Source of the DNA: an uncultured Gammaproteobacteria bacterium
GTDB taxonomy: Bacteria > Patescibacteriota > Patescibacteriia > SG8-24
Direction: 5' to 3'
DNA: 64,000 nucleotides
Assembly (NCBI GenBank): GCA_964626205.1
Contig: CAZVED010000004.1
Location: forward strand, 2,163 to 66,162
Shown here: positions 4,605-60,396 of the stretch, piece after piece
Position numbering within the stretch: the stretch's first letter is position 1
Layout: the number at the start of each line of letters is the position of its first letter
The notes under the pieces: generated by a model
The model's input: the letters and a program-made list of their open reading frames with translations, nothing else
Told to the model about the DNA's origin: nothing
Database searches by the model: none
Position numbers and translations under genes: made by a program

Positions 4605-4717
4605 ATTTGGCCAAATTTGAGCTTTTATTTTTGTTTCCAATGCTTTCTTTGCTTCTGTCCTCACTGAGCTTATCACAAACTAAGCTTATTTTCAAGCCCT
4701 ATTGGTTTGTACAAAGC

Positions 4718-4748
4718 AAAAAAAACGACCCTTTTGGGTCATTTTTTG
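4718..4748. terminator. Bidirectional rho-independent terminator (gaccc-tttt-gggtc flanked by an A-run and a T-run)
   Basis: The hairpin at 4727-4740 has a poly-A run before it and a poly-T run after it. It lies just downstream of the minus-strand oxidoreductase gene. Confidence 0.5.
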
Positions 4749-4820
4749 TTCAAAACTGTCTTGTGAGTAAAATGTGGATGACTGTCTTTTTAAGCTCAAA
4801 AATCTGAGCTTACCAACATC

Positions 4821-13690: not shown

Positions 13691-14209
13691 TTATTTCTTG
13701 GTGAAAGCGGCTCGACCGAGGGCGCGACCCCACAGGAGGAACGGCAGTTGCGCGAGAAGGAACGCGAGCGCGAGTGCGTTCATGCCGGGAAACTCGTAGG
13801 TTGGGACGGTCGTATCGACGACCTCGCCAATGCCGACCAAGTCGAGGTACCCGTTCCACATGAACCAGTTACCGGACTTGTCCGGATAGAGACCGCGATG
13901 CCAGTCCAGCAGGTCGAAATACGTCAGGACCTCCATGGTCCAGAATCCTGCAACGAACAGGACGAGTAGCGCATTCAACACTTTCGTCCGCCGATGAACT
14001 GCTTCCAATGAAAGCAAATGTCCGCGACAATGTGCGAACGCGACGAGTGCGGCGATGAGCCCGACAGCGAAGAATGTCGCCGGGTCCACCACGAACGTGC
14101 AGAGCGGCAGCGTTGCTCGCGCCTCTCTCGGGAGCGCGTAGCGCGCCTGCATCAGATGCGCGACGAAAACGCAGGCGAATAGCAGGAATGCGGCGTGAAG
14201 AGCGACCAT
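13691..14209 (-). CDS. Hypothetical polytopic membrane protein
   Basis: Its start is AGGAAGGAGG-N7-ATG. It has about 5 hydrophobic helices. Confidence 0.5.
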   Translation of the reverse strand: MVALHAAFLLFACVFVAHLMQARYALPREARATLPLCTFVVDPATFFAVGLIAALVAFAHCRGHLLSLEAVHRRTKVLNALLVLFVAGFWTMEVLTYFDLLDWHRGLYPDKSGNWFMWNGYLDLVGIGEVVDTTVPTYEFPGMNALALAFLLAQLPFLLWGRALGRAAFTKK

Positions 14210-37844: not shown

Positions 37845-38185
37845 AGTCAATGATTCAGGACTCAATTAGGGCTATATTGCCACATCTTGTCGGTCTGCGC
37901 AAGCCCTAAAGCACCGCATTTTTAGCCTTATTTTACGCCATGCTGTCCTTTTTCGACCCTCTCTTGCTTGTGTATCTCTTTTTTGATAGGTCATGCAAAA
38001 ATTTTTACAGGAGCTTCGATCTGTCAAAAAAATACTGTCAGCGGTGCGGTGTCGGCGTCCTTGCAAGAAATGAAAAAGATATACACAATTGGTACACACG
38101 ATATCACCATATCCATCCTTTCCACAGGGGGTGGTATCACGTAGAATTCGAAAAGCTTTCACATTTCAAACCAGCAGCGACCACT

Positions 38186-39586
38186 ATGAACACGCATGAA
38201 CTTTGGCAGGCGGTACTCGGCGAATTGGAGCTTTCGTTGAGCAAGGCAAATTTCACCACCTGGTTCAAAAACACGTTCATCGCGTCAATTGAAAATGATT
38301 CTGTGGTCATTAGTGTCCCGAACACCTTCACAAAGGCCTGGCTTGAGAAAAAATATAACGCTCCCATCATCGATTCCTTGCGATCAGTAAGCAAGCTTCC
38401 GATTCGCGAGGTTGTTTACAAGGTAGAGATCCGACCTCAGGTCAAAGCAGCTCCTGGTCAGGAGTCTTTTAAGGACGTTCCTTCGTATGGGCAAATGGCC
38501 CCTGCGGCGGCTACGGCAACGGCTGTAAAAACGCTAAGTGTAGATAAAAAAGCGACCTCTGATCTTCAAATGAACGAGCGGTATTCTTTCGAAACGTTCA
38601 TCGTCGGCAAAGGAAGCGAGCTCGCACATGCCGCATCTGTCGCTGTTGCGGAAAACCTTGGAACGAAATACAACCCGCTCTTCATTTACGGCGGGGTCGG
38701 TCTCGGAAAGACACATCTTTTGCAAGCAATCGGAAACGAGACGCTCCGCAGGAAGCCCTCTGCAAGGATTCGTTACGTCACCTGTGAGAAGTTCACGAAC
38801 GATTTCATCAACGCCGTAAAGAGCGGTCGTGGAAAGGAGTTCAAGGACTCCTACCGCAATGTTGATCTCCTCATGATCGACGATGTGCAGTTCCTTACAG
38901 GTAAGGATGGTACGCAGGAGGAATTCTTCCATACCTTCAACGCTCTCCACGAGATGAACAAGCAGGTTGTCCTGACCTCTGATCGCCCGCCGAAACAGAT
39001 TCCGGCCCTGGAGCAGCGCCTCGTTTCCCGTTTCGAGTGGGGAATGACCGCAGATGTCTCGAGCCCAGATTTTGAGACCCGCATCGCCATTCTTGAGTCC
39101 AAGTGCAAAGAGCGCTCCTACGACCTCGAGGAGTCGGTTCTTCGCTATGTTGCCACGGTCGTCCAGTCCAATGTACGTGAACTGGAAGGTGCCCTGAACA
39201 AGATCATCGCCTACCACCAGTTCAAGAACACACAGCCGACTTTGGAAGGGGTAAAACAACTTCTTTCAAGCTTTGGTCCGTCTCAGGCAAAGAAGAATAT
39301 CACCGCGAAGCACCTTATTTCGACGGTTTCGCAGTATTTCGATGTCACCGAGGAAGAAATGCTCGGAAAATGCCGAGAAAAGCGCCTTGCTTTCCCTCGT
39401 CAGATCATCATGTACCTCATGCGCGAAGAAATGCGCTCTTCGTATCCGACCATCGGGCAGGAGATTGGGGGTCGCGATCACACGACGGCCATGCATGCCT
39501 ACGATAAGATCTCCAAGGAGCTCGAGGTAAGTCCGAAGCTTCGTCAGGATTGTGACCTCATCAAACAACGCTTGTACAACGCCTGA
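38186..39586 (+). CDS. dnaA: Chromosomal replication initiator DnaA
   Basis: It has an AAA+ Walker A (GGVGLGKTHLLQAIGNE) and the C-terminal DNA-binding helix region. The track ORF adds a spurious 82-aa leader through the origin spacer. Confidence 0.95.
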   Translation: MNTHELWQAVLGELELSLSKANFTTWFKNTFIASIENDSVVISVPNTFTKAWLEKKYNAPIIDSLRSVSKLPIREVVYKVEIRPQVKAAPGQESFKDVPSYGQMAPAAATATAVKTLSVDKKATSDLQMNERYSFETFIVGKGSELAHAASVAVAENLGTKYNPLFIYGGVGLGKTHLLQAIGNETLRRKPSARIRYVTCEKFTNDFINAVKSGRGKEFKDSYRNVDLLMIDDVQFLTGKDGTQEEFFHTFNALHEMNKQVVLTSDRPPKQIPALEQRLVSRFEWGMTADVSSPDFETRIAILESKCKERSYDLEESVLRYVATVVQSNVRELEGALNKIIAYHQFKNTQPTLEGVKQLLSSFGPSQAKKNITAKHLISTVSQYFDVTEEEMLGKCREKRLAFPRQIIMYLMREEMRSSYPTIGQEIGGRDHTTAMHAYDKISKELEVSPKLRQDCDLIKQRLYNA

Positions 39587-39589
39587 GGA

Positions 39590-39855
39590 ATACTCGTGGA
39601 TAAGCAGTCGATAACAGGTCTATAAAGACCGGAAAACTTCGATACTTTCCCACAGTATCTCCACCGAAGAAATTCTCTCGTTCGGTTCCATCCCTAGGTT
39701 ATCCATCCGTCCCCACACGTTCCTCACAGGTCGTCCCATCGTTTTCTCAGCGCAACGCAGGTATTTTTGACGACTTATCCCTGTTATCCCCGCTATTACT
39801 GTTATTACCAAGAAGTTTTCACTTAAAAAATCAATTCAATAACAGGACTAAGAAA
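39590..39855. other. Candidate oriC: DnaA-box cluster plus an AT-rich unwinding element in the dnaA-dnaN spacer
   Basis: The boxes are CGTGGATAAG (39595-39604, 8/9 to TTATCCACA), TTTCCCACAG, GGTTATCCATCC, CTTATCCCTG and TGTTATCCCCG. An AT-rich tract TTTCACTTAAAAAATCAATTCAATAACAGG lies before dnaN. More box-like sites lie in the rpmH-dnaA spacer (38105-38125). Confidence 0.6.
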
Positions 39856-40998
39856 ATGAAATTCTCCTGCACACAAGAGAACCTCCATCAGGGACTTTCC
39901 GTCGTGAGTCATATCGCGAGCAGGAACGTAAACCTTCCGATTCTTGGAAACGTTCTCATCAAATGTGATGGTACTGTCTTGAAGCTGTTGTCCACGAATT
40001 TGGAAATCGCCATCAGCTGCACGGTTCGGGGAAAGATCGAAGAGGTTGGAGAGTTTACTGTCCCGTCGAAACTCTTCTCAGATTACGTCAGTCTGCTTTC
40101 TAAGGACCGGATCGACATAGAACAGTCCGGAAGCGTTGTGGAGGTCTCCTGCGGGTCTTACAAGACGAAATTGAACGGCGTTCATGCCAGTGAGTTCCCT
40201 CTCATCCCAGCTGTCGATAAACAACAGGAATTCATCGTTAAGGTAAGTGATCTTCGTCGCGCTATCAGTCAGGTTCTTTTTGCGGTCGCTCCGAATGAGT
40301 CCCGCCCAGAGATCAGTGGTGTCCTGTTTGCTTTTGAGCAATCAAAAAACAACCTTTCTTTGACGTTGGCGGCCACAGATAGCTACCGTCTGGCGGAAAA
40401 AACAGTTCCTGCAAAAGGGGTAATCAAGGACCAGGCGGTTTCTGTCATCGTTCCGGCACGAACTGTAGCGGAAATCATCCGCATTCTTACGGTCTTTAAG
40501 GATGATTCGGAGTCACCGGAAGACGTCAATATTTCTTTGAGTGACAACCAGATCTTGTTCTCCTATGGGTCAGTCGAGCTTATTTCAAGAACGATTGAGG
40601 GTAAGTATCCGGATTATCGACAACTTATCCCCGACACCTATCAGACAGAGGTTCGGCTTTCCAAAGACGAGCTTCAACGGGCCATTAAGGCAACAAGTCT
40701 GTTTTCCAGGACAGGGCTTAACGATATTACCGTTGCCTTCAAGCCCGATAGCGAGATCCATGTCCGGGCGACGAACTCACAAACCGGGGAACATTCGGTA
40801 GACCTAGAAGGAGCGATTATCGGTAAGGAAAACGTCATCACAGTGAACTACAAATACCTTTTGGATGGGGTCAATAATATCGATACAGATCTCGTTGCCA
40901 TGAAGATGATCGATGGTATGAGTCCGTGTCTCATCCAGTCAGGGTCGGATGAGACAAAACCAGACTATCTCTACATCGTCATGCCGATTCGTCAGTAA
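39856..40998 (+). CDS. dnaN: DNA polymerase III beta sliding clamp
   Basis: The protein is 380 aa with a three-domain clamp and begins MKFSCTQENLHQGLSVVSHIASRNVNLPILGNVLI. Confidence 0.95.
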   Translation: MKFSCTQENLHQGLSVVSHIASRNVNLPILGNVLIKCDGTVLKLLSTNLEIAISCTVRGKIEEVGEFTVPSKLFSDYVSLLSKDRIDIEQSGSVVEVSCGSYKTKLNGVHASEFPLIPAVDKQQEFIVKVSDLRRAISQVLFAVAPNESRPEISGVLFAFEQSKNNLSLTLAATDSYRLAEKTVPAKGVIKDQAVSVIVPARTVAEIIRILTVFKDDSESPEDVNISLSDNQILFSYGSVELISRTIEGKYPDYRQLIPDTYQTEVRLSKDELQRAIKATSLFSRTGLNDITVAFKPDSEIHVRATNSQTGEHSVDLEGAIIGKENVITVNYKYLLDGVNNIDTDLVAMKMIDGMSPCLIQSGSDETKPDYLYIVMPIRQ

Positions 40999-49185: not shown

Positions 49186-50139
49186 TCACTCCAGCAGCTT
49201 CACCTGGTCGATTTTCCCAGTGAGCTTGGCGTAGCCGGATTGCGCCGTATCCATGGCACTTTTGGCGTTGGTGATGTGCCGAGAAACGACACTGAGGTTC
49301 TCATTGAACCGGACGGACTCCTGCTGCACACCCTTGAGAATGTCCCAAATTTTTTGCGCCTGCTCCTGGAGCTTGTTGCGCTCCATGCCCATCATGATGA
49401 CGCGGAGGAAGTTGAAGAAGCCGTGCGGAGAAATGATGAGAACCCCCTTCGTTTTGGCGTAGTCGAGGAGGCCGGACTCATCGTCGGTAAGGATATGATA
49501 GTAGACGTTTTCGGACGGCACATACATGACACCGAAGTTCACGGTCCCCTCGTCCGGACGGAGGTACTTCTTGGCGATGTCGTCCACGTGTTTTTTGACC
49601 GCCTTCATGAACTCGCGCTGCGCGACCTTGCGGGATTCCTCCGTTTCCGCGCGGGTGAATTGTTTGAAGTTCTCGAGCGGGAACTTGGAGTCAATGGGAA
49701 TGAGCCCTGACTGCGTTCGAATGACTGCATCGACGGTCTCCCCTGCCGAGAACTTATACTGCAGCTGGTAGTGCTCATCCGAGAAGACCTGCGCCAGCAT
49801 ATCTGCAAGAATCTGTTCACCGATGTTGCCGCGGAGCTTCGGGTGCATAAGATCGCTGAACTCCTCGAACCCCTTGAACCGCTCCTGGACCGTTCCAAGC
49901 TCTTTCTGCACCGCCATGATGACCTGGGCCGCCTTGTCGAGCCGTTGATTCATGGATTCCGTGCTTTTGTCGATGCGTTCGTTCATGCCCTGAAGGTTCT
50001 GATTCAGCATGACGAGGCCCTTGTCGTTGGAGTGCGCGTCTTTCCATTCGGAGATCTTACGGGAAACGGTAAATGCGACCGCGATAAGTGCGAGGACGGT
50101 AAGGATGAGGATGCCGAGCAACAATGTTTCGATGGTCAT
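49186..50139 (-). CDS. rmuC: DNA recombination protein RmuC
   Basis: There is an N-terminal TM helix, a coiled-coil and a C-terminal RmuC nuclease-like region (GVLIISPHGFFNFLRVIMMG). Confidence 0.8.
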   Translation of the reverse strand: MTIETLLLGILILTVLALIAVAFTVSRKISEWKDAHSNDKGLVMLNQNLQGMNERIDKSTESMNQRLDKAAQVIMAVQKELGTVQERFKGFEEFSDLMHPKLRGNIGEQILADMLAQVFSDEHYQLQYKFSAGETVDAVIRTQSGLIPIDSKFPLENFKQFTRAETEESRKVAQREFMKAVKKHVDDIAKKYLRPDEGTVNFGVMYVPSENVYYHILTDDESGLLDYAKTKGVLIISPHGFFNFLRVIMMGMERNKLQEQAQKIWDILKGVQQESVRFNENLSVVSRHITNAKSAMDTAQSGYAKLTGKIDQVKLLE

Positions 50140-50182
50140 ATGCCGGAAGTATACGCGAACGTACGTTCAGGAAAAAGGAGAA

Positions 50183-50209
50183 ACAAAAACGCCGACCTTG
50201 CGATCGGCG
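50183..50209 (-). terminator. Terminator after the tRNA-Arg/Ala pair (cgccga-N8-tcggcg; U-run on minus strand)
   Basis: On the plus strand the A5 run at 50184-50189 precedes the hairpin. Confidence 0.45.
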
Positions 50210-50215
50210 ACTTTG

Positions 50216-50291
50216 TGGTGGACCCGAAGAGACTCGAACTCTTCACCTCTGCAATGCGAATGCAGCGCTCTACCAGATGAGCTACGGGCCC
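50216..50291 (-). tRNA. tRNA-Ala (anticodon CGC) with G3:U70 and encoded CCA
   Basis: Folded by hand: acceptor GGGCCCG/CGGGTCC, anticodon loop TTCGCAT, T-arm AAGAG-TTCGAGT-CTCTT. Confidence 0.85.
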
Positions 50292-50345
50292 ACAGGCTTC
50301 CAATGACCGTCTGAGGATAGCGTGATTTTGGGAAAGTGTAAACCG

Positions 50346-50421
50346 TGGTGCCCCCAGAGGGACTTGAACCCCCATCTTGTCCTTAGGAGAGACCTGCTCT
50401 ATCCAGTTGAGCTATAGGGGC
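50346..50421 (-). tRNA. tRNA-Arg (anticodon CCT) with encoded CCA
   Basis: The acceptor is GCCCCTA/TGGGGGC, the anticodon loop is CTCCTAA, and the T-arm is GGGGG-TTCAAGT-CCCTC. Confidence 0.8.
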
Positions 50422-50439
50422 TTACTTCCTCATCTGAGC

Positions 50440-51400
50440 GAGGTGGAGCATAGCACGGTATCCCCCATTTGGAAAGACGTGATAAAGGTATTTATGTGTC
50501 GTACAATTTTATATTATTTATATTGTTGTGTAGCAAATAGACTTGATACAACGTTTTAAAATTTATGCATGAAAAAATAAAGAGACGGCCAAGACGAAAA
50601 GCAATTCGGAAGCGTAGAATTTCGAGTGCCATTAAATGTTTCACATGGAACAACAGACGTAAGTTCTTTATACAAGTTTCACGTGAAACACATTTTCAAT
50701 TTTTGGAAATGATCAGGCTGTTTCATGTGAAACATTTTTACAACCGACAAAGCACGGTTTCAGTGTTTCATGTGAAACACCAATACAGACTCCTGACAAC
50801 GCAGATTGATCAGTGTGCGAACTGAAGAAAAACGAGAAGACCTTAGTGAAAATGCTGCCGCTACAAAGGAGCGTTGGAAAATATGTTCAGTAGGCATAAC
50901 AGTCTTGTGTATTAAAGCAAAAACGAGGCAATGACCTCTGGTTTTCAAGGCAGGTATTTTTATTGCAGTGTTGAATAGTCATATGTTTGAAAAAATGACC
51001 GGATGTTTCACGTGAAACATCAAAAGATTTGCTTGGTTAGTTGGCTAGGTGACAAAAGAAACAAAGAAATAAAAATTTTACGACACAAAATGAACGTTTT
51101 TTGATGCAAAAACAGATCAGTTTGTTTGGTGTGGACAAAGATGCCAGTCCAAGCTCAAAAATAAGTCTTTCTGTGGACAGTTTAGGGGATAAGCTACCCA
51201 ATTTGTGAATAGTTTTTTTGTACAACTTATGATTTGTTGAAAAAGTTCTTAACATGCCCATTTTTACTCTATATTTAGCCAAAAAACAGCACATTGGATG
51301 ATTGACTTTGAGCTTATTTTCTGCTAAAATAGATATGTACTAGAGAAATTGCGGCGAAAAGCCGTGTACAAAATCTAAAAATACCAAGACAAGGTACCCA
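50440..51400. promoter_or_regulatory. ~960-bp AT-rich non-coding island with a 16-bp palindrome array, upstream of the surface-protein gene cluster
   Basis: GC drops sharply relative to the ~60% background. TGTTTCATGTGAAACA occurs at 50719-50734 and 50765-50780. GTTTCACGTGAAAC occurs at 50676-50689 and 51005-51020. A degenerate copy TGTTTCACATGGAACA lies at ~50637-50652. Only short spurious ORFs are present. Confidence 0.55.
51302..51330 (+). promoter_or_regulatory. Sigma70-like promoter TTGACT-N17-TAAAAT for the first surface-protein gene
   Basis: It is a near-consensus -35 and -10 with 17-bp spacing, ~65 nt upstream of ATG 51400. Confidence 0.5.
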
Positions 51401-52197
51401 TGCACCTACCGAGTCGCGGAAAACATATTGTGGCAATCATGCTGTTTTCGTTCAGCATGATTGTTGTTTTTTCCGGTGCGGTTAAGGCGGAACGGATGAG
51501 TTCCAGCAACTATGTGATTCAAGCAGATGCCATGGGAATCGCTGGTGGTTCCAGCACCTCAACGAATTACTGGGTTATAGACACCCTCGGTGAGGTGGCA
51601 ACTGGGGAAAACCTCCAGAGCACGAACTACCGAGGCTGTGCAGGATTCGAGTGTTTCCAGGAAGAGCCGTACATCTCCTTCGTGGTTCGTCAGGGTACCT
51701 CCGCACCGGGGTCATCGGGGGCCGGTGTGAACCTTGGGGTGCTCTCGCCATCAACGGTCAAGACGTCGGATGGGGCAACGGTGAACTCAATTTTCCTGAC
51801 AGTCGAGAGCAACGCTGCCCACGGGGTCATTGCAAGCGTTCGAAGCCAGAACGCCGGCTTGCAGCGCACCTCAAATGCTCTTGCGAACATTCCATCATCG
51901 ACGGTGGCCCTTGTTCCGGGGGTCGAAGGGTACGGAGTCTGCGTTTTTTCTGCCGCAGAGGACGGCTTGAGCCCCACGGTCTTTGTGGAGAATGCCCCAT
52001 ATGACGGGACCTGCACCACAACGACGGGCCACGATGTTGGGATCGTTGACGAGACGCCACGAGCGATTCTTTCCTCCGCCGGGCAGCTCAAGGGAGGGGA
52101 ATCGGAGATTCTCGTCAAGGCAAGCGCGGGTATTTGGACCGAGGCAGGGGACGACTATGTCGATACGCTCACATTCATTTTGTCGGCGACATACTAG
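51400..52197 (+). CDS. Secreted protein, paralog A (WxL-like C-terminal motif DYVDTLTFILSATY)
   Basis: A signal peptide (MLFSFSMIVVFSGAVKA) is followed by Ser/Thr/Gly-rich beta-type sequence. The C-terminal motif is shared with the next paralog. Confidence 0.5.
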   Translation: MHLPSRGKHIVAIMLFSFSMIVVFSGAVKAERMSSSNYVIQADAMGIAGGSSTSTNYWVIDTLGEVATGENLQSTNYRGCAGFECFQEEPYISFVVRQGTSAPGSSGAGVNLGVLSPSTVKTSDGATVNSIFLTVESNAAHGVIASVRSQNAGLQRTSNALANIPSSTVALVPGVEGYGVCVFSAAEDGLSPTVFVENAPYDGTCTTTTGHDVGIVDETPRAILSSAGQLKGGESEILVKASAGIWTEAGDDYVDTLTFILSATY

Positions 52198-52843
52198 CCT
52201 CCACACCCTGCTTCCGGATGTCGTCCGGGAGTGCGGTGCGGAGGGTAGCGTTAAGCCACTCACGCAAAAATGTCTATGCGTCAGCGAACAAAAACAAAAC
52301 TGTTTTCGTTGCTGGTGAAGATGACAACGGTCGCGATGGTCGCAGGCATGGTCACGAGGATCATGCCGATCGGCCGCTAAACGACCGCTTCGGACAGTGT
52401 CGCGCGTTTTGCCCTCCAACGTCCGGAATTGCCGTCAAAAATCAACGGCAAAAACGGAATCCGCCCCTGGTGCAACAGGGAGGGCTGGATGAGGGCAGTA
52501 CTCGCGATGGTGATCCGAAGACGTCGTTCGGTGTCGGTTCCGCATCCTGTCGTCGTGAGAACGATGACCGCAGGAATGCGGAGGTGACTCCGTGTATATC
52601 GAACAGCCCAAGGTCGACTGATGTCGCGTGTCCGGGCGACTCAGTATCACGTCAGCGTATTCTTCTGCCGCGTCTCGCCTGTCCAAAGGGCGGAAACGGC
52701 ATGGCGTTGACGACGGATATTTATTCTTTACTGCTGCTTCCAAGCACGCTCGCGCATTTGCCAATAACGTCATCCTCAACTCGAGAAGGGATGACGTGAC
52801 GGTGCGCAGGCCTTAGCAAGGAAGCGAGCCTACAAGTACGACA

Positions 52844-53965
52844 ATGAAAAACAAAATATTCTCGTTCGTTGCAAAGCTGACCTCTGTGGCGATGATCCTG
52901 TCATCCCTGCTGCAGGTCGCTCCGGTCCGTGCGGCGACCGTGACCTCGCTCAGCGATGTTATGACGCGCCTCGCGGCATCCGTTGCCTCTAATCACGAAA
53001 TCAAGTTCGTGATACCCGGAGGTATCGCCGCAGGAGAAACTGTTACGTTGACCTTTGGATCCGGATTCGACATCTCCTCAATCGTCGAGGACGATGTGGA
53101 TTTCGCGGTCGGCAATTCTAACAATTGCTCCACCGCAACATTCACGGAAGAAGCTACTGCGGCGGTGGCTGACGCTGCCGACTGGGGTGTCGCCGTTTCC
53201 AGCCAGGTGCTGACCATCACGAGCGGTACTGACACGCTTGTCGCGGACCGTTGTGTCCGCATCCGCGTCGGAACCAATGCTGTCAGCTCCGGCACAGGCG
53301 CCAATCAGGCGGTCAACCCGACGGCTGGCGCAAACACGATTGTGGTCGGCGGCACCATGGGTGATGTCGGCACGATCGCTCTCTCCATCGTCGACTCGGA
53401 TCAGGTCACGGTTACCGCGACCGTCGATCCGTCGCTGACGTTCGATCTCGACACCGCGACCTCGGATACGAACTCTGCGAGCCCGTATTCCGTGGCGCTC
53501 GGCACCCTTACGCCGGGTACACCGAAGTCGTCCGACCAGTCAGCCATCAACAGCATCTACGTCGACCTGACAACGAACGCCACCTCCGGCGCGGTTGTCA
53601 CGGTCCGTAATGCCAATGGTGCAGATGGTCTCGTGAGTACATCCGTACCCACAGACACCATCGACAGTGCGGACGGTACGATGTCCAGCGCGACAGCCAA
53701 CTACGGCATCTGCATTGAGTCGGTCACACAGACGGCCGGTGCGACGCTGACGGAGGTCGCCCCGTATGACGGCACCTGCGTCGCTGGTGCTACGGACAAC
53801 GTCGTCGGTGGCCTGCTCGCCACCGCGACGAACATCCTGACCGCCGCGAGTCCGATTAACGTCGGTCGCGCGGAGATCCTCGTGAACGCCAACGCAACGG
53901 CGCTCACGGTGGCTCACAACGACTATACCGACACCCTGACCTTCATCGCGACGGGTACGTTCTAA
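52844..53965 (+). CDS. Secreted protein, paralog B (C-terminal AEILVNANATALTVAHNDYTDTLTFIATGTF)
   Basis: It has a signal peptide (LTSVAMILSSLLQVAPVRA). Its C-terminal 30 aa align with paralog A (SEILVKASAGIWTEAGDDYVDTLTFILSATY). Confidence 0.5.
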   Translation: MKNKIFSFVAKLTSVAMILSSLLQVAPVRAATVTSLSDVMTRLAASVASNHEIKFVIPGGIAAGETVTLTFGSGFDISSIVEDDVDFAVGNSNNCSTATFTEEATAAVADAADWGVAVSSQVLTITSGTDTLVADRCVRIRVGTNAVSSGTGANQAVNPTAGANTIVVGGTMGDVGTIALSIVDSDQVTVTATVDPSLTFDLDTATSDTNSASPYSVALGTLTPGTPKSSDQSAINSIYVDLTTNATSGAVVTVRNANGADGLVSTSVPTDTIDSADGTMSSATANYGICIESVTQTAGATLTEVAPYDGTCVAGATDNVVGGLLATATNILTAASPINVGRAEILVNANATALTVAHNDYTDTLTFIATGTF

Positions 53966-54051
53966 GTGGTCGTTGCTTGCTTGGTCCCCCTCGACTTCGA
54001 GGGGGGTCATCCTGCGGCGATTACGGACAATCATCACTAACCTCAACTCCT

Positions 54052-55068
54052 ATGCGAAAATCCAGACATTTGCTCGGAACGGTCACGCTCACGCTTGCGC
54101 TCGCGGCGGCACTTCTGCCGGTTTCCGCGAGCGCGCTCACCATCTCTCCGCCATCGTTCGATTACAACCTGAACCCCGGAGACACGGTCCTCGATGTCGT
54201 GAAGGTCTATAACGAGAATGAAACGACAGAGATCGTGTATCCCGTCCTCGTTGATTTCGTTGCTGACGAAGGCGAGGCTGGCGCTCCACGTTTCGTTCCT
54301 GCAGGGACCGATGCTGCGGGAGCCGGTATTTCCGACTGGATTTCCATGGACATGTCCGGGCTCGTCGTTGCTCCAGACGAGCGCATCAACTTCCCGTTTT
54401 CCATCAACGTCCCGGCAGACGCGTCGCCGGGTGGTCACTACGGCGCCATCCTGCTTTCTACGGAACCGCCATCCGATGTCCCGGGAGGCGTCGGTGTCGC
54501 GTCGCAGATCGCCGCGCTCATTCTCGTGAACGTTTCCGGAGACGTTCGAGAAGTCGGCGCTATCGCGGAATTCGGATTCGTGGATCCGCAGGTCTGGTAC
54601 GACCACCTGCCTATCGACTTTTTCCTCCGTTTCGAGAACTCGGGCAACACGCACCTGCGCCCATCCGGCAACCTATTTGTCGAGGACTGGACCGGTCGCC
54701 AGGTCGCATCCATCAAAGTGAACGAAAGCTTCAACGGTGTTTTACCGATGAGCATCCGTCGATTCCAGTTCGGTTGGCAGAAGCGCGGTTTCGACACGTC
54801 AGACTCCGGGCTCGAACGCGAATGGAAGAATTTCGCGATCGGTAAACACACGGCGACCCTCGTCTTGAACTACGGCAGAGCGACCGGACAGGTCGTGAGT
54901 GAGCAGCGCGTGTTCTATGTCTGGCCGTGGAGGCTCATGATCGTGAGCGGCATCGTCCTGCTTATCCTCGCGGTGCTGTGGGTCATTCGTCGAAAGATGT
55001 TCGCGAAGGGCGTTATTGCGCGGTATGAGGAGGCCAAGCGTAAAGAAGCAGCCTTGAGGAAGGGATAG
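54052..55068 (+). CDS. Cell-surface protein with an N-terminal signal peptide and a C-terminal TM anchor plus basic tail (DUF916/CscA-like architecture)
   Basis: The protein begins MRKSRHLLGTVTLTLALAAALLPVSASA. It then has ~280 aa of beta-rich domain, and ends ...WPWRLMIVSGIVLLILAVLWVIRRKMFAKGVIARYEEAKRKEAALRKG. Confidence 0.5.
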   Translation: MRKSRHLLGTVTLTLALAAALLPVSASALTISPPSFDYNLNPGDTVLDVVKVYNENETTEIVYPVLVDFVADEGEAGAPRFVPAGTDAAGAGISDWISMDMSGLVVAPDERINFPFSINVPADASPGGHYGAILLSTEPPSDVPGGVGVASQIAALILVNVSGDVREVGAIAEFGFVDPQVWYDHLPIDFFLRFENSGNTHLRPSGNLFVEDWTGRQVASIKVNESFNGVLPMSIRRFQFGWQKRGFDTSDSGLEREWKNFAIGKHTATLVLNYGRATGQVVSEQRVFYVWPWRLMIVSGIVLLILAVLWVIRRKMFAKGVIARYEEAKRKEAALRKG

Positions 55069-55116
55069 GAGGAAAAGTAGAGAGCTATTGACCCGTATAT
55101 ATATAGAAGCACGAAA

Positions 55117-58100
55117 ATGAACCAGGAGACGCGACAAACGACCTTGCTGCAGCGACTGAGCCTGACTCTCGGGTTCGGGCTGCTTGTCGTTGTCGCGTCA
55201 TCCACGCTCGTCTTCTTCGCTTCTGCGACCGCGGTATCCGAACGCTCGGATACGCTCTCCAACCAGACGTCGGGTCAGGCATCTTCCCACACCATCCGCT
55301 TCACGCTGTCGGGTGGCAATGCGTTTGCCGCCGCCGAACAGATCGTCGTTGATTTCGGCGAGGATGATGCCAGGTTTGCCGTGGCTGGCATGACCTTTGC
55401 CGCAGCCGACATCGAGGTTGATGACGGGACATCGCGCACAACATACTCCGTGACGAACGGTCCGGCTTCATGTGTGGGTTCTTTGGGGGCGAACGACATT
55501 GCCGTCGGCATCGACGATGCGACAGGTGTCATTACCATGGAAGCGTGCCCATCCTTCGTTGCAAGCGCGGCCGGCGCTCTTGTGACGATCCGTATCGGCG
55601 CGGTCGCTGGCGGTACGGACAGGATTACGAACCCGACCGCCGGAAGCCACCTTATCGATATCGTCGATGCGGCAGGAGACTGCCAGACCTTCGGTGACGT
55701 CTGCGCCATCGGCATCGCCATCCTTGATGCGGGGATGGTCACCATCAGCGCGGTCGTCCCTCCGGTGTGCGGCGACGGCAAGGTAGAAGGCGACGAAATG
55801 TGCGATGACGGAAACCTTGTCGGTGGCGACGGGTGTTCAAGCACGTGTCGTAATGAGAATGATGGCGGAACCTCCGTCGACATCGCGCCACCGGTTATTT
55901 CCAACGTACGCGTGGAAGATGTCACGACGACTTCGGTGACGGTCGCGTGGGATGCCAATGAACCTGCATCCGGACGTGTTGAGTACGGTGCAGATCAGAC
56001 GTATGGAAGCGTCGCCGGTCAGTCGGCATTCCTGTACGCGCACACCATCGGTCTCTCCGGCCTCCAGCCGAACACGACGTATCACTTCCGTGTCTGTTCG
56101 ACGGATCCGACGCAGAACGAAGCGTGCTCCGGCGACGCCACGTTCATGACCGCATCCGTGCAGGACGCGCTCCCGCCAGTCATCACGAACATCCAGGTGA
56201 CGAGCGTCACCGCGACCAGCGCGACAATCGTCTGGACCACGGACGAAGCCGCGACGTCCTTCGTAGACTACGACACCGACGGCGCTCCGTATGCTTCCGT
56301 CGCGACGACCGCCGGTCTTGCGACCGCGCACTCCGTCGCGCTGTCCGGCCTCCAGCCGAACACGACGCATCACTTCCGCGTACGTTCCGGTGACGCATCT
56401 TCAAACGAGGCGTTTAGTACGGACCTTACCTTCATGACCGCATCCGTGCAGGACACGCTCCCGCCAGTCATCACGAACATCCAGGTGACGAATGTCACTG
56501 CGACCAGTGCGACGATCGTCTGGACCACGGACGAAGCCGCGACGTCCTTCGTAGACTACGATACCGACGGCGCTCCGTACGCTGCCGTCGCGCCAACGTC
56601 GGGTCTTGCGACCGCGCACTCCGTTACGCTGTCCGGCCTCCAACCGAATACGACGTACCATTTCCGCGTGCGTTCTGTGGATGCATATGGAAACGAGTCG
56701 TTCGGTACGAATATGACGCTTGCGACATGGGACGCGCTCCCGCCAGTCATCACGAACATCCAGGTGACGAGCGTCACCGCGACCAGCGCGACAATCGTCT
56801 GGACCACGGACGAAGCCGCGACGTCCTTCGTAGACTACGACACCGACGGCGCTCCGTATGCTTCCGTCGCGACGACCGCCGGTCTTGCGACCGCGCACTC
56901 CGTCGCGCTGTCCGGCCTCCAGCCGAACACGATGCATCACTTCCGCGTGCGTTCTGTAGACGGGGGTGCGAACGAGGCGGTTTCGGAGAACGCGACATTC
57001 AGGACCTTGGTACCAGCAGCACCGGTTGTGAGCGATGTTCAGGTGACGGATGTGACGGACTCATCCGCCCGCATCACGTGGGTCACGGATACGACATCGA
57101 CCACTGTCGTGGAGTATGGACTTTCGACAACATATGGCGCTGTCGTCTCGAACCCGACGTTGTCCACGAACCATCTTGCGCTCATCACCGGGCTTACGAA
57201 CGGCACGATGTATCACTTCCGCGTATCATCGACCGATGCCTATGACCAAACGACGATTGTCGATGGAGGGACATTCACGACCACCGCAGACGTGACCGCA
57301 CCTCCGAATGTTACTGGTTTCATCGCCGAGCCAGGAGATGCTTTGGTGCTGCTTTCATGGACGAACCCGGCGGCCGCGGACTTCGCTGGCGTCCGCATCC
57401 TCCGAAAGACGACGGGATTCTCTTCCGGTCCGACGGACGGTGACATGGTGTACTCCGGCGTTGCGCAATCGTTCGCGGACATGGGTGTGTCGAACGACAT
57501 CGTGTACTACTACACCATCTTCGCTTTCGACGAGGTGCCGAACTTCTCGACTGGCGCGGTCGTGTCTGCGACCCCGGTCGGACCAGAGGACATGACGCCG
57601 CCGGGACCGGTGACCGGTTTCATGGCCATCGCTGGAGACGCCAGCGTGGAACTTTCGTGGACGAACCCGATGGACGCCGATCTTCGCGGTGTTCGTATCG
57701 TCCGCAAAGAAGACGGGTGCCCTGTCGACGAGACCGACGGCACGACCGTGTACGCTGGCCTCGCGACGTCGCGCATGGACATCGGGCTCATGAACGATAC
57801 GACGTATTGCTATGCGGCATACGCATACGATGCTGTTCCGAACTTCTCGTTCGGTACGACTGCGACCGCGACGCCTGTCGCAATAGAGGATGTGACGCCG
57901 CCTGGGCCGACCACTGACTTCGTCGCCACCGCCGGAGACGCCATCGTTCTCCTTACATGGACGAACCCGACGGATACGGATTGGCGAGGGACGCGCATCG
58001 TTCGCAAGGTCGGTTCCGACCCGACGTCGCCGACAGACGGCACTGTCTTGTATGAGGCTGCCGCGAGCTTCTTCTGGGATGACATCAATCTGACGAATGG

Positions 58101-60396
58101 CGTGACGTATCACTACGCGGCATACGCATACGACGAAGCCGGAAATTTCTCGGCAGGCGCGTTCGCCAACGCGACACCGCTTGAGGGGCTTCCACTTCCG
58201 GTTCTCGCCTGCTCCGACTCCGATGGTGGCCTCTCGTTCGAGGTCGCAGGAACGGTGACGACGCCATCCGGAGCGTTCATCGACGCATGCGTGGACGAGA
58301 CGATGCTTCGCGAATACTTCTGTGCCGGAACATCCGTACAGGAACAAGCGTACGTTTGCGATGCTGGCGCACGTTGCTTGGCAGGACGCTGCGTCCCTGA
58401 GGACTACGTGCCCATGCCGGATACATGCGGTAACAGTTTCTGTGATGGTGTCGAGACGAACCTTTCATGTCCGTCGGATTGTCCGGTGGCAGCAGGTATT
58501 CCGTTGCAGCATCTTGGGGCGACAAACGTGCCTCCCGAAGAGCGTTTGCAACTGGATTTGGTGCGGTTCTATGCGACCGAACGACAGATTGAGCTCGTCT
58601 TCGACGAGAATAACCGTATCGCCATCTATCCGGCGACGACCGTCCGTGTGTATCTGCCGGACGCAGCGATCCGGAAGCCGATTCGCGAGGCATATGCGAC
58701 CATCGAAAGTTCTTCGTATGCGATGCGTGAGACGCGGAGCTATGAGACGAGCATCGTCATGCCGAAGGAGACCGCAGACCACCCGCTCACGTTCAGCGTG
58801 CTGTATCAGGACGGCACACACGAGATCACGGAGTACTCGTTCGTCGTCAATCCGTTCAGCGTCATCTATGAGGTGGTCGGTGGCAAGCCGGTTCCGGTCG
58901 CGGATGCTCGTGTGGCCGTCTTCCGACAGGACGAGCGTGGCAGGTTCGGCCTGTGGGATGCCGATCGCTTCGGGCAACAGAATCCGATCGTCACGAACGT
59001 TTCCGGCTCGTACGGCTTCATTGCCGAACCCGGCACGTACCGCCTGCAGGTGGAAGCTCCCGGATTCCGTCCGTTCCAGACGCTGCCGTTCCGCGTCCGC
59101 GAGAACCTTGTCGGTCGTGATGTCGAGATGGTCCGGTTGCCACCGCCATTCATCGAGAATCCCGTGGAGAACATCGTCAACCGTGCGGCATTCTTGCTCG
59201 ATGCGACACGGCAAGAAGTGATGGAGTTCATCGATAACGAGTTCGTCGAGGAGGGGACGGTAACCGTGGCACCGGTCGCCCTCGCTGTCGCCGCGACGAA
59301 TGCCGCGGCCGTGGTGCCTCACCTGCCATTCCTGTACTCGCTCCTTGCGCACCCGTTCCGCATCATCGCAATGCGGCGCAGGAAGAAGTGGGGGGTCGTT
59401 TTCGACGCCATCACGCAGATGCCGGTGGACCTCGCGATTGTCCGTTTGCTGGACGCGGAGACTGGACGCATCATGCGTACCGCCGTGACGGATCAGCAAG
59501 GTCGGTACGCATTCATCGTGAAGCCAGGGTCGTATCGCTTGACGGCGACCAAAGTCGGCATGACGTTCCCATCCGTCTTCCTGAAGGAAAAGAAAGAATC
59601 TGCGCGTTTCATCGACCTGTACCACGGAGAGCCTGTGGCTGTCAGCGCGGAAGACGTCATCACTGCGAATATCCCGCTTGATCCGATTGGTAGCGCAAAG
59701 ACGCCGACGCGCATCGTATGGGAGGGCGTTGGCCGGAGGTTCCAGCACGGCATCGGCATTCTCGCCATTGTCACGATGGTCGGCGTCATGGTCATCGCGC
59801 CGAGCATGTTCACGGCGGCGCTCTTGGCCGGGAATGTGATCTTCTATGCGGTCTTCCGGCGTGTCACATCGGTACGGCACCCGAAGAGCTGGGGTATCGT
59901 CTACGACGAGGAAACGGGCAAGCCCCTTACGAACGTCGTCGCCCGCGTGTTCGACACGGCATACGACAAGCTGCTGGAGACACAAGTGACAGACATCAAA
60001 GGTCGGTACGCGTTCCTTGTCGGCAATAACGTGTATTACGTGACGTTCGAGAAGCCAGGATATCGGAAACGGCAGAGTGACAAGGTTGACCTGCTCGCCG
60101 GCGACAAGGCGAAGGATCAGGTCGTCGCGGTCGATGTTACGCTCTCGCAGGCGAAGGGCGATGGCGAGACGAAAAAGCCGGAGGCTCCACCACCCCTTCT
60201 CGTGCCACCGCCTACGGCGACGCCTCCTCCGATGTCACCGCTCGCCCCGCATGCGCGGGAGATCGACGAAGAGCAGCTCGCGGAATCGGCGGTCGGGTCC
60301 GTCGCTCAGATGCTCGAGCATGAGGAGCCTGATGATGGGCAGAAAAAGGAATGGATAGAGCGACATCGACCGGAGGATGAAGAAGGTAAACAGTGA
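55117..60396 (+). CDS. Giant (1759 aa) membrane-anchored multidomain surface protein with FN3-like repeats (4 + 4), a Cys-rich module, three CarboxypepD_reg-like domains interleaved with TM segments, and a Pro-rich tail
   Basis: The N-terminal TM/signal is GFGLLVVVASSTLVFFASA. Repeats of type PPVITNIQVTSVTATSATIVWTTDEAATSFVDYDTDGAPYASV...LSGLQPNTTHHFRVRS (purple-acid-phosphatase-N-like FN3) occur 4 times. A second FN3-like type with SWTNP...GVRIxRK occurs 4 times. Further on are GRYAFIVKPGSYRL and GSYGFIAEPGTYRL motifs, a TM stretch ILAIVTMVGVMVIAPSMFTAALLAGNVIFYAVF, and a C-terminal PPPLLVPPPTATPPPMSP. Confidence 0.75.
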   Translation: MNQETRQTTLLQRLSLTLGFGLLVVVASSTLVFFASATAVSERSDTLSNQTSGQASSHTIRFTLSGGNAFAAAEQIVVDFGEDDARFAVAGMTFAAADIEVDDGTSRTTYSVTNGPASCVGSLGANDIAVGIDDATGVITMEACPSFVASAAGALVTIRIGAVAGGTDRITNPTAGSHLIDIVDAAGDCQTFGDVCAIGIAILDAGMVTISAVVPPVCGDGKVEGDEMCDDGNLVGGDGCSSTCRNENDGGTSVDIAPPVISNVRVEDVTTTSVTVAWDANEPASGRVEYGADQTYGSVAGQSAFLYAHTIGLSGLQPNTTYHFRVCSTDPTQNEACSGDATFMTASVQDALPPVITNIQVTSVTATSATIVWTTDEAATSFVDYDTDGAPYASVATTAGLATAHSVALSGLQPNTTHHFRVRSGDASSNEAFSTDLTFMTASVQDTLPPVITNIQVTNVTATSATIVWTTDEAATSFVDYDTDGAPYAAVAPTSGLATAHSVTLSGLQPNTTYHFRVRSVDAYGNESFGTNMTLATWDALPPVITNIQVTSVTATSATIVWTTDEAATSFVDYDTDGAPYASVATTAGLATAHSVALSGLQPNTMHHFRVRSVDGGANEAVSENATFRTLVPAAPVVSDVQVTDVTDSSARITWVTDTTSTTVVEYGLSTTYGAVVSNPTLSTNHLALITGLTNGTMYHFRVSSTDAYDQTTIVDGGTFTTTADVTAPPNVTGFIAEPGDALVLLSWTNPAAADFAGVRILRKTTGFSSGPTDGDMVYSGVAQSFADMGVSNDIVYYYTIFAFDEVPNFSTGAVVSATPVGPEDMTPPGPVTGFMAIAGDASVELSWTNPMDADLRGVRIVRKEDGCPVDETDGTTVYAGLATSRMDIGLMNDTTYCYAAYAYDAVPNFSFGTTATATPVAIEDVTPPGPTTDFVATAGDAIVLLTWTNPTDTDWRGTRIVRKVGSDPTSPTDGTVLYEAAASFFWDDINLTNGVTYHYAAYAYDEAGNFSAGAFANATPLEGLPLPVLACSDSDGGLSFEVAGTVTTPSGAFIDACVDETMLREYFCAGTSVQEQAYVCDAGARCLAGRCVPEDYVPMPDTCGNSFCDGVETNLSCPSDCPVAAGIPLQHLGATNVPPEERLQLDLVRFYATERQIELVFDENNRIAIYPATTVRVYLPDAAIRKPIREAYATIESSSYAMRETRSYETSIVMPKETADHPLTFSVLYQDGTHEITEYSFVVNPFSVIYEVVGGKPVPVADARVAVFRQDERGRFGLWDADRFGQQNPIVTNVSGSYGFIAEPGTYRLQVEAPGFRPFQTLPFRVRENLVGRDVEMVRLPPPFIENPVENIVNRAAFLLDATRQEVMEFIDNEFVEEGTVTVAPVALAVAATNAAAVVPHLPFLYSLLAHPFRIIAMRRRKKWGVVFDAITQMPVDLAIVRLLDAETGRIMRTAVTDQQGRYAFIVKPGSYRLTATKVGMTFPSVFLKEKKESARFIDLYHGEPVAVSAEDVITANIPLDPIGSAKTPTRIVWEGVGRRFQHGIGILAIVTMVGVMVIAPSMFTAALLAGNVIFYAVFRRVTSVRHPKSWGIVYDEETGKPLTNVVARVFDTAYDKLLETQVTDIKGRYAFLVGNNVYYVTFEKPGYRKRQSDKVDLLAGDKAKDQVVAVDVTLSQAKGDGETKKPEAPPPLLVPPPTATPPPMSPLAPHAREIDEEQLAESAVGSVAQMLEHEEPDDGQKKEWIERHRPEDEEGKQ
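56139..56990 (+). repeat. In-frame tandem DNA repeat inside the giant gene: three units of ~279-288 bp, with ~195-bp stretches perfectly identical between units 1 and 3, plus a diverged unit 0 at ~55850-56138
   Basis: GCTCCCGCCAGTCATCACGAACATCCAGGTGACG recurs at 56169, 56457 and 56736. The antisense track ORFs 55837..56373 and 56401..56940 share identical peptides, which confirms the DNA identity. Confidence 0.75.
57290..58190 (+). repeat. Second in-frame tandem repeat (3-4 units of 300 bp, diverged) encoding SWTNP-type FN3-like domains
   Basis: TGGACGAACCCG recurs at 57358, 57658 and 57958. Confidence 0.5.

What the first reader, a model, noticed from the sequence alone, without database searches (positions are those of the whole stretch)
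50630..51025. Array of 16-bp perfect palindromes TGTTTCA(C/T)GTGAAACA in an AT-rich gene-free island
There are four exact copies and one degenerate copy of a zero-spacer inverted repeat. Two of the copies are identical 16-mers 46 bp apart. The repeat has a CACGTG/CATGTG core. All copies sit in ~960 bp of AT-rich non-coding DNA upstream of a strong TTGACT-N17-TAAAAT promoter. Repeated dyad operators of this kind suggest cooperative binding of one dimeric regulator, or nucleoid-protein silencing, over the surface-protein cluster. The motif does not match operator consensuses I know (Rex, CRP/FNR, LexA, CodY, Fur, CcpA).
Basis: seen in the sequence. Interest (0 to 1): 0.65.

Follow-up and report, generated by a model that had tools for sequence, protein, structure and literature searches.

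The report
Origin-proximal parS centromere cluster, CPR bacterium
The repeated 16-bp dyads are copies of the textbook bacterial centromere sequence parS, bound by the chromosome-partition protein ParB. They lie about 11 kb from the replication origin of an uncultured Patescibacteria (CPR) chromosome, so this is an ordinary, well-understood feature in a little-studied organism, not a new regulator's operator.

Summary
The array is real. Five sites lie at 50637-51019 in a 978-bp island of 36% GC. The scan gave 11 strand-hits against 0.81 expected.

The core sequence TGTTTCACGTGAAACA is the canonical chromosomal parS consensus (TGTTNCACGTGAAACA). All 14 papers in the library that contain this 16-mer concern ParB-parS or origin finding.

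The window is the origin region of a Uhrbacteria-like CPR chromosome. It has the layout rnpA-rpmH <-> dnaA-dnaN, and the skew breakpoint is at about 38-40 kb. The cluster sits 11 kb downstream of dnaA.

In 2.2 Mb of related loci there are 51 parS-like sites against about 0.5 expected. In the 19 relatives with a complete orthologous island, 39 of 39 sites fall inside it and none in the other 340 kb.

The repeat does not extend beyond the 16-mer, so it is not a MITE. Rfam gives no credible RNA match, and no regulator gene was found nearby.

Best explanation: a ParB loading site, which nucleates the partition complex and probably loads SMC.

Main caveat: no parB or parA gene is in the window or in any of the 165 related origin-region loci. 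The cognate protein is therefore inferred.

Side observations: the island also carries conserved DnaA boxes, two divergent promoter-like elements and a tRNA pair whose orientation flips among relatives.

Low novelty and low interest.

The parts
50637..50652 (.). parS-like site 1, TGTTTCACATGGAACA (2 mismatches to the consensus)
50675..50690 (.). parS site 2, AGTTTCACGTGAAACA (1 mismatch; 14-bp core is a perfect palindrome; the same 5' A as in the S. pneumoniae consensus AGTTTCACGTGAAACT)
50719..50734 (.). parS site 3, TGTTTCATGTGAAACA (C8T at the dyad centre)
   Evidence: the same variant occurs in relatives
50764..50779 (.). parS site 4, TGTTTCATGTGAAACA, identical to site 3, 45 bp downstream start to start
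51004..51019 (.). parS site 5, TGTTTCACGTGAAACA, a perfect match to the canonical consensus and a perfect palindrome
50422..51399 (.). AT-rich non-coding island (978 bp, GC 0.36) that holds the parS array. It is conserved as an island between rmuC/tRNAs and the pilus-like operon in relatives.
50216..50421 (-). tRNA-Ala(CGC) 50216-50291 and tRNA-Arg(CCT) 50346-50421. The pair is a conserved component of the island in relatives, but its orientation and order vary.
50495..50507 (-). Promoter-like element (reverse complement ATTGTACGACACA) pointing at the tRNA genes. It is an inverted copy of the element at 51075-51087. The two elements bracket the parS array.
   Evidence: (inverted repeat I2)
51075..51087 (+). 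Conserved ATTTTACGACACA block (second copy found in 12 of 19 islands), lying 11-140 bp after the last parS. It is preceded by the GTGACA-N16-AAAAAT promoter-like match at 51049-51076.
51130..51180 (-). DnaA-box-like elements TTGTCCACA (51130-51138) and CTGTCCACA (51172-51180). Relatives carry perfect TTATCCACA boxes at the equivalent position.
51302..51330 (+). Sigma-70-type promoter-like site TTGACT-N17-TAAAAT upstream of the 265-aa PamT-like gene (51400-52197)
37940..40998 (+). dnaA (37940-39586) and dnaN (39856-40998). They mark the replication origin region against which origin proximity of the parS array is judged.

Best explanation
The five dyads are chromosomal parS sites, that is, the centromere of this CPR chromosome.

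Shown here:
- They match the universal parS consensus.
- They lie about 11 kb from dnaA and the skew-defined origin.
- They are conserved as a cluster at the orthologous position in related genomes, while the surrounding non-coding DNA diverges.

Inferred from established ParABS biology:
- Dimers of a ParB/Spo0J protein encoded elsewhere in the genome bind each parS through their helix-turn-helix domains.
- With CTP bound, the dimers close into clamps and slide or spread over the neighbouring kilobases.
- This forms one partition complex per origin copy. The complex is segregated with or without a ParA ATPase and loads SMC condensin onto the origin region.
- Several closely spaced sites raise the loading rate.
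- The array sits in the gap between two promoter-like elements that point away from each other. If both are active, little transcription would run through the loading sites.
For: 1. Sequence identity. Site 5 equals TGTTTCACGTGAAACA and the others differ by 1-2 bases. All 14 papers holding this 16-mer are on ParB-parS or oriC. [quoted passage not shown]

2. Origin proximity. rnpA-rpmH <-> dnaA-dnaN lie at 37.3-41.0 kb. The cumulative GC skew minimum is at about 40 kb. A gene-wise GC3-skew regression puts the breakpoint at 38 kb.

3. Non-random, localised distribution. There are 51 sites (<=2 mismatches) in 2.22 Mb of window plus related loci, against 0-2 in shuffles. In the 19 loci with a complete island, 39 of 39 sites are inside it (34.7 kb) and 0 are in the other 339.8 kb.

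4. Conservation. 15 of the 19 islands (the window and 18 relatives) carry 1-4 sites, many of them perfect (L006 x3, L009 x3, L022 x2), and L025 (island without p265) has x2. L163 has three perfect sites about 10 kb downstream of its dnaA.

5. Pattern of variation. Differences fall mainly at positions 5/12, 8/9 and 1/16. Positions 5 and 1/16 are the ones written as degenerate in published consensuses. Positions 3, 4, 6, 11 and 13-15 are invariant in 44 sites (the <=2-mismatch selection biases this).

6. Extent of the repeat. Similarity does not extend past about 16-20 nt.
Against: No ParB or ParA gene was found in the 64-kb window. Pfam was run on 40 ORFs, NCBIfam on the unannotated ones, and tblastn on all six frames.

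None was found in 165 related loci totalling 2.24 Mb around rmuC and dnaA either (tblastn; phmmer at E<=10 with a working positive control). The cognate protein is therefore not demonstrated for this lineage. The rest of the genome could not be reached.

Four of the 19 islands have only decayed remnants with 3-4 mismatches, so the position is not obligatory.

Nothing was found in the searchable literature on ParB or parS in Patescibacteria. No binding data exist.
Confidence: 0.9

Rival explanations
1. ParB-parS centromere that also works as a transcriptional control element. ParB bound at or spreading from the array would repress or tune the two flanking promoter-like elements (the tRNA pair on one side, the pilus-like operon on the other). 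This is close to the reader's 'silencing' idea and is not exclusive of the best explanation.
For: The last parS lies 11-57 bp upstream of the conserved ATTTTACGACACA promoter-like block in the window, L001, L009, L013, L021, L022 and L023. The review lists a study titled as showing ParB-potentiated repression of promoters adjacent to parS3/parS4 in P. aeruginosa (ref 203). ParB spreading from parS modulates competence development in S. pneumoniae (PMC4488948).
Against: The parS sites are 283-665 bp from the -35 hexamer of the strongest promoter. The parS-to-promoter spacing is not fixed among relatives. From general knowledge, ParB spreading in most species studied has little effect on transcription.
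Confidence: 0.15
2. Operator array of a dedicated dimeric transcription factor (not ParB) that controls the downstream surface-protein/pilus operon.
For: Repeated dyads upstream of an operon with a strong promoter. The cognate ParB has not been found.
Against: The 16-mer is identical to the parS consensus. No regulator gene was found flanking the island here, and none is conserved next to it in the four relatives' loci whose called genes were listed. The sites are far upstream of the promoter. The cluster keeps its position relative to the origin-region genes.
Confidence: 0.03
3. The island is the replication origin, or one half of a bipartite origin. parS and DnaA boxes would then be parts of oriC.
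For: A perfect DnaA box TTATCCACA is present in 16 of 19 orthologous islands, with up to 6 copies. Perfect boxes are rare next to dnaA in this clade: 4 of 72 dnaA-dnaN spacers. The island is the most AT-rich stretch of the window. One paper once read TGTTTCACG half-sites as species-specific DnaA boxes.
Against: The GC3-skew regression fits a breakpoint at 34-41 kb (RSS 874) much better than one at 51 kb (RSS 1185). The dnaN-to-island segment has net positive skew in the window and on average in 15 relatives, with no sign switch at the island. The window's own island has only 1- and 2-mismatch boxes.
Confidence: 0.06
4. Copies of a miniature mobile or repetitive element, or a structured RNA gene.
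For: Several near-identical copies in AT-rich DNA next to tRNA genes, which are typical integration sites.
Against: Similarity stops at about 16-20 nt and the flanks are unrelated. There are no other copies in the remaining 63.6 kb at <=2 mismatches. There is no Rfam match above noise. The position is the same across relatives.
Confidence: 0.01

Closest known systems
Bacillus subtilis Spo0J (ParB)-parS; the review table gives 10 sites, 8 in the origin domain, consensus TGTTNCACGTGAAACA
   Same: The same 16-bp palindrome. Multiple copies concentrated near oriC. Degeneracy at position 5.
   Different: Here five sites are packed into 383 bp of one intergenic island, whereas the B. subtilis sites are not confined to one short island (from memory, not checked here). 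No parB (spo0J) or parA (soj) gene lies in the origin region here.
[quoted passage not shown]
   Same: Several closely related sites that all lie in the origin domain.
   Different: From memory, not checked here, the sites in those species lie next to or near parAB. Here and in all 165 related loci, parAB is absent from the neighbourhood.
Streptococcus pneumoniae ParB-parS without ParA (4 sites, AGTTTCACGTGAAACT)
   Same: Site 2 (AGTTTCACGTGAAACA) shares the 5' A variant. The system shows that parS/ParB can work without ParA, mainly through SMC loading, and that spreading can influence neighbouring genes.
   Different: Whether this CPR lineage has ParA, ParB or SMC is unknown. None was seen in the sequence available.
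Noc and its binding site (NBS), a ParB paralogue in Firmicutes
   Same: A related 16-bp palindrome bound by a ParB-family protein. The typed Spo0J control also matched the Noc model.
   Different: From memory, the NBS consensus (about ATTTCCCGGGAAAT) differs at specificity positions that the window's sites keep in the parS state, and NBS sites are excluded from the terminus rather than clustered at the origin. L004's TGTTTCACGGGAAACA is only halfway towards it.
Plasmid ParB-family global repressors (KorB type)
   Different: From memory, KorB recognises a different operator sequence. The context is plasmid-borne, and there is no evidence here of a plasmid or a KorB-like gene.

Membership tests
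Chromosomal parS (ParABS centromere) | 16-bp palindrome matching TGTTNCACGTGAAACA | tested here: met
   One perfect site, three with 1 mismatch and one with 2 mismatches. Consensus taken from PMC7022226.
Chromosomal parS (ParABS centromere) | Location in the origin-proximal domain of the chromosome | tested here: met
   11 kb downstream of dnaA. The skew minimum and the regression breakpoint are at 38-40 kb. Genes are arranged the same way in relatives.
Chromosomal parS (ParABS centromere) | Sites under selection: conserved at the orthologous locus while the flanks diverge, and not scattered | tested here: met
   51 sites against about 0.5 expected in 2.22 Mb. 39 of 39 sites lie inside the island in the 19 loci with a complete island. 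15 of those 19 islands have sites.
Chromosomal parS (ParABS centromere) | Cognate ParB (TIGR00180 / PF02195) encoded in the same genome | tested here: inconclusive
   Absent from the window and from 165 related loci (2.24 Mb) by Pfam, NCBIfam, tblastn and phmmer, with validated queries.
Chromosomal parS (ParABS centromere) | Specific, CTP-dependent ParB binding and spreading; SMC loading | not testable with these tools
   Needs EMSA, DAP-seq or ChIP-seq.
Operator array of a local transcription factor | Cognate regulator gene adjacent, and sites overlapping or abutting the regulated promoter | tested here: not met
   No regulator gene was found flanking the island. The sites lie 283-665 bp upstream of the -35 hexamer at 51302.
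Miniature repeat / mobile element | Shared sequence beyond the core, and dispersed copies | tested here: not met
   Similarity ends at about 16-20 nt. There are no other copies in the window at <=2 mismatches.
oriC | Cluster of DnaA boxes in AT-rich DNA | tested here: inconclusive
   Perfect boxes occur in 16 of 19 islands, but only 1- and 2-mismatch boxes in the window's island.
oriC | Strand-composition switch at the site | tested here: not met
   The best breakpoint is at 38 kb (RSS 874), against RSS 1185 at 51 kb. There is no sign switch at the island in 15 relatives.
Noc-binding site | NBS-specific bases (from memory: A at position 2 and C at position 7 of each half-site) | tested here: not met
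   All five sites keep G2 and A7. Of 44 sites, 43 have G2 and 43 have A7.

The most novel reading that the evidence does not exclude
The island may be a conserved composite organiser of the origin domain, specific to this Uhrbacteria-like CPR clade. It combines a parS array, canonical DnaA boxes, two divergent copies of a lineage-specific promoter-like element and a tRNA pair whose orientation flips among relatives. It sits in genomes where parAB is not linked to the origin at all and where dnaA-flanking DNA is nearly devoid of perfect DnaA boxes. In the most novel version, the DnaA boxes make it a second origin element or a DnaA-titration or reactivation site (datA- or DARS-like) coupled to the centromere, or the lineage lacks a canonical ParB and the sites are read by another protein.
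Probability: 0.07. Interest if true: 0.55.

Novelty: new member of a known kind. Interest (0 to 1): 0.15.

Why it matters
It matters little as a discovery, because parS is textbook biology.

It is useful as annotation. It marks the centromere and, together with dnaA and the skew, the origin domain of an uncultured CPR chromosome. It implies that these ultra-small, probably episymbiotic bacteria use ParB-based origin segregation and/or SMC loading. It also gives a ready-made DNA probe for testing a CPR ParB in vitro.

The observations that go slightly beyond the ordinary are these:
- parAB was not found in 2.2 Mb of origin-region sequence from this clade.
- Canonical DnaA boxes are co-conserved with parS in the island.

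I found nothing on parS or ParB in Patescibacteria in the searchable literature.

Tried and rejected
- **Rfam.** The whole window at gathering thresholds gave only tRNAs. The island at E<=1 gave only two noise-level eukaryotic miRNA models. An RNA gene is rejected.
- **MITE or repeat element.** The repeat finder shows no shared flanks. Rejected.
- **ParB/ParA hunt.**
  - Pfam on 40 ORFs.
  - NCBIfam on unannotated ORFs.
The queries were validated as ParB and ParA by NCBIfam.
  - Nothing was found.
- **Reaching the rest of the source contig.** Exact-protein look-ups for three proteins all failed, because the source genome is not indexed.
- **Literature on ParB or parS in CPR/Patescibacteria.** Five searches and two papers read, with nothing relevant.
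- **Island as oriC.** I considered this seriously after finding the DnaA boxes. I rejected it as the main reading on skew evidence.
- **Remaining whole-database protein searches.** Their output is the 120 nearest neighbours of the query, and I had no ParB from this lineage to start from, so they could not be aimed at this genome.
- **The 3-mismatch hit at 13852-13867** (TGGTTCATGTGGAACG). It lies inside a coding region and is within chance expectation. I do not count it as a site.

Full report
**1. Observation**

Reading 50000-51800 and scanning the window for TGTTTCAYGTGAAACA with up to 3 mismatches gives five sites:

| Site | Coordinates | Sequence |
|---|---|---|
| 1 | 50637-50652 | TGTTTCACATGGAACA |
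| 2 | 50675-50690 | AGTTTCACGTGAAACA |
| 3 | 50719-50734 | TGTTTCATGTGAAACA |
| 4 | 50764-50779 | TGTTTCATGTGAAACA |
| 5 | 51004-51019 | TGTTTCACGTGAAACA |

The scan returned 11 strand-hits against 0.81 +/- 1.07 expected, and no shuffle out of 100 reached 11. The only other hit in 64 kb is a 3-mismatch match at 13852, which is within chance.

Only site 5 is a perfect palindrome. Sites 3 and 4 are identical and 45 bp apart start to start.

The sites lie in a 978-bp non-coding island (50422-51399, GC 0.36; 2-kb windows elsewhere mostly read 0.49-0.63). The island lies between tRNA-Arg(CCT)/tRNA-Ala(CGC) on the minus strand and a 265-aa gene on the plus strand. The TTGACT-N17-TAAAAT promoter-like site is at 51302-51330.

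**2. What the motif is**

TGTTTCACGTGAAACA is the canonical chromosomal parS sequence. This started as a recollection, so I tested it.

- The exact 16-mer occurs in 14 papers of the library, and all of them deal with ParB-parS or origin finding.
- The same review tabulates species consensuses:
  - B. subtilis TGTTNCACGTGAAACA
  - Hyphomonas TGTTTCACGTGAAACA
  - S. pneumoniae AGTTTCACGTGAAACT
  - M. smegmatis GTTTCACGTGAAAC
  - M. xanthus TGTTCCACGTGGAACG

**3. Where the window comes from**

Pfam annotation and the sequence upstream of dnaA show the classic origin layout:

- rnpA and rpmH on the minus strand, facing dnaA (37940-39586) and dnaN (39856-40998) on the plus strand
- then PBP1A, a ROK-family protein, tRNA-Cys, polA, holA and rmuC (49186-50139, minus strand)
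- then the two tRNAs, the island, and an operon of secreted proteins ending in a 1759-aa fn3-repeat protein

Cumulative GC skew is lowest at about 40 kb. A gene-by-gene regression of third-codon-position skew separates a coding-strand term (-0.13) from a replication term (+0.09). Its best breakpoint is at 38 kb. The parS array is therefore about 11 kb into the right replichore. RmuC homologues identify the organism as a Patescibacteria/CPR bacterium near 'Candidatus Uhrbacteria'.

**4. Conservation**

I fetched loci in three ways:

- orthologous loci through RmuC homologues
- 80 loci from species-representative genomes with an RmuC alignment
- 80 dnaA-centred loci from metagenomes

Results:

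- Sites with up to 2 mismatches occur only in the closer relatives (RmuC identity of about 51% or more). With one exception (L028, about 4 kb upstream), they lie 0.1-2 kb upstream of rmuC, in the orthologous region.
- Of the 19 islands that are complete (the window and 18 relatives), 15 carry 1-5 sites. Examples are L006 with three perfect sites, L009 with three perfect plus one, and L022 with two perfect plus one. L025, whose island lacks p265, has two perfect sites.
- The four exceptions keep only remnants with 3-4 mismatches.
- Over all 2.22 Mb there are 51 sites, against 0-2 in shuffles and 0.58 by arithmetic.
- In the 19 loci with a complete island, 39 of 39 sites lie inside the island (34.7 kb) and none in the other 339.8 kb.
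- Variation falls mainly at positions 5/12, 8/9 and 1/16, and the arms are otherwise invariant (with the caveat that sites were selected at <=2 mismatches).
- L163 has three perfect sites about 10 kb downstream of its dnaA, as in the window.

The motif is neither scattered nor missing from orthologous loci.

**5. What it is not**

- Not a mobile element. The repeated unit does not extend beyond about 16-20 nt and the flanks are unrelated.
- Not an RNA gene. Rfam finds nothing credible.
- Not an obvious local operator array. No regulator gene was found next to the island here, and none is conserved next to it in the four relatives' loci whose called genes were listed. The sites are 283-665 bp from the -35 hexamer of the strong promoter.

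**6. Anatomy of the island**

The order is conserved across relatives:

1. rmuC
2. the tRNA-Arg/tRNA-Ala pair
3. one to several parS sites
4. a conserved block ATTTTACGACACA
5. DnaA box(es) 160-350 bp upstream of the first operon gene
6. the operon

In the window, the ATTTTACGACACA block is at 51075-51087. It is preceded by the GTGACA-N16-AAAAAT match, so I read it as the -10 and start region of a promoter. This is inference. An inverted copy at 50495-50507 points at the tRNAs (repeat I2). The five parS sites therefore sit between two promoter-like elements that point away from each other.

The tRNA pair is inverted in about half of the relatives, and parS sites can flank it on both sides, as in L006.

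**7. The oriC alternative**

A k-mer census showed a perfect DnaA box (TTATCCACA) in 16 of 19 islands, with up to six copies. Perfect boxes are rare beside dnaA in this clade: 4 of 72 dnaA-dnaN spacers. This made 'the island is oriC' a real rival. Three results speak against it:

- The regression strongly prefers a breakpoint at 34-41 kb (RSS 874, against 1185 at 51 kb).
- The dnaN-to-island segment has positive skew in the window and on average in 15 relatives, with no switch at the island.
- The window's own island has only imperfect boxes.

I keep the DnaA boxes as an unexplained, conserved auxiliary feature. They may be regulatory or may serve DnaA titration.

**8. The missing protein**

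No ParB or ParA is encoded in the window or in any of the 165 loci (2.24 Mb) by tblastn or by phmmer, even at E<=10. NCBIfam validated them: Spo0J scored 227 bits on TIGR00180 and Soj matched ParA-family models. A self-hit control also passed.

The source genome is not indexed, so its other contigs cannot be read. Nothing was found in the literature on ParB in this phylum. The cognate ParB is therefore inferred from the exact conservation of its recognition sequence. It has not been shown. parAB is evidently not origin-linked in this clade.

**9. Mechanism**

The following is inferred from established ParABS biology as summarised.

- ParB dimers recognise each parS through their HTH domains.
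- They bind CTP, close into clamps and slide off. This loads many ParB molecules onto the surrounding kilobases.
- The resulting complex marks each origin copy. It is segregated with or without ParA (S. pneumoniae lacks ParA) and recruits SMC.
- Five sites within 383 bp should raise the loading rate.
- Any effect on the neighbouring promoters would be secondary.

**10. Verdict**

This is a canonical, origin-proximal parS cluster in a CPR chromosome: a new member of a thoroughly known kind. Interest is low.

Noticed in passing
window 51130-51180; L001-L024 islands: A perfect DnaA box TTATCCACA is conserved in 16 of 19 orthologous islands, 160-350 bp upstream of the pilus-like operon, with up to 6 copies (L011). 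The window has only TTGTCCACA and CTGTCCACA. In the same clade, perfect boxes are rare beside dnaA (4 of 72 dnaA-dnaN spacers). Their function is unexplained (regulatory, DnaA titration or an origin element).
   Followed up: partly
L099 (about 6.0 kb upstream of dnaA), L116 (about 4.3 kb upstream), L135 (about 9.7 kb upstream): Tight groups of two or three perfect DnaA boxes spaced 17-31 bp apart lie 4-10 kb away from dnaA in some relatives. They may be the real oriC or a DnaA-box cluster in those genomes.
   Followed up: no
window 51400-60396: The first gene after the island (265 aa) weakly matches NCBIfam NF058579 'CPR-type pilus protein PamT' (E 2e-12, 47 bits, far below the 240-bit cutoff). 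The 1759-aa protein carries fn3, Pur_ac_phosph_N and CarboxypepD_reg repeats.
   Followed up: partly
window 50495-50507 (-) and 51075-51087 (+); islands of relatives: The conserved block ATTTTACGACACA (ATTGTACGACACA in the inverted copy) recurs upstream of the tRNA genes and after the last parS in relatives. It is probably the -10 and start region of a lineage-typical promoter.
   Followed up: partly
L001-L028, tRNA-Arg(CCT)/tRNA-Ala(CGC) pair: The orientation and order of the tRNA pair inside the island flip among close relatives. In L006, parS palindromes flank the pair on both sides. This may reflect inversion between inverted repeats.
   Followed up: no
all 165 loci (2.24 Mb around rmuC and dnaA): No ParA/Soj-like or ParB-like ORF was found anywhere, even at E<=10, so parAB is not origin-linked in this clade. 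This differs from the arrangement I recall for most bacteria, with parAB near oriC.
   Followed up: yes
L007, L010, L014, L015: Several relatives' contigs end exactly at the AT-rich island upstream of rmuC, which suggests the island is a recurrent assembly breakpoint.
   Followed up: no
L004/L005 compared with the window: In the 1.5-Mb contig relative, the island and rmuC are joined to genes homologous to window 14-19 kb (NUDIX, integrase, tRNA-His/Arg) instead of holA-polA-dnaN. The parS island has therefore survived a large rearrangement. Three of its sites read TGTTTCACGGGAAACA.
   Followed up: no
window 4501-4979: A second AT-rich spot carries three one-mismatch DnaA boxes (4773, 4821, 4971), close to a local maximum of cumulative GC skew at about 4-5 kb.
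   Followed up: no
L003 (JAXOUH010005391.1): GC skew is extreme (+0.25 to +0.33) over 8-10 kb on both sides of the island, unlike all other relatives. No intact parS is present there.
   Followed up: no
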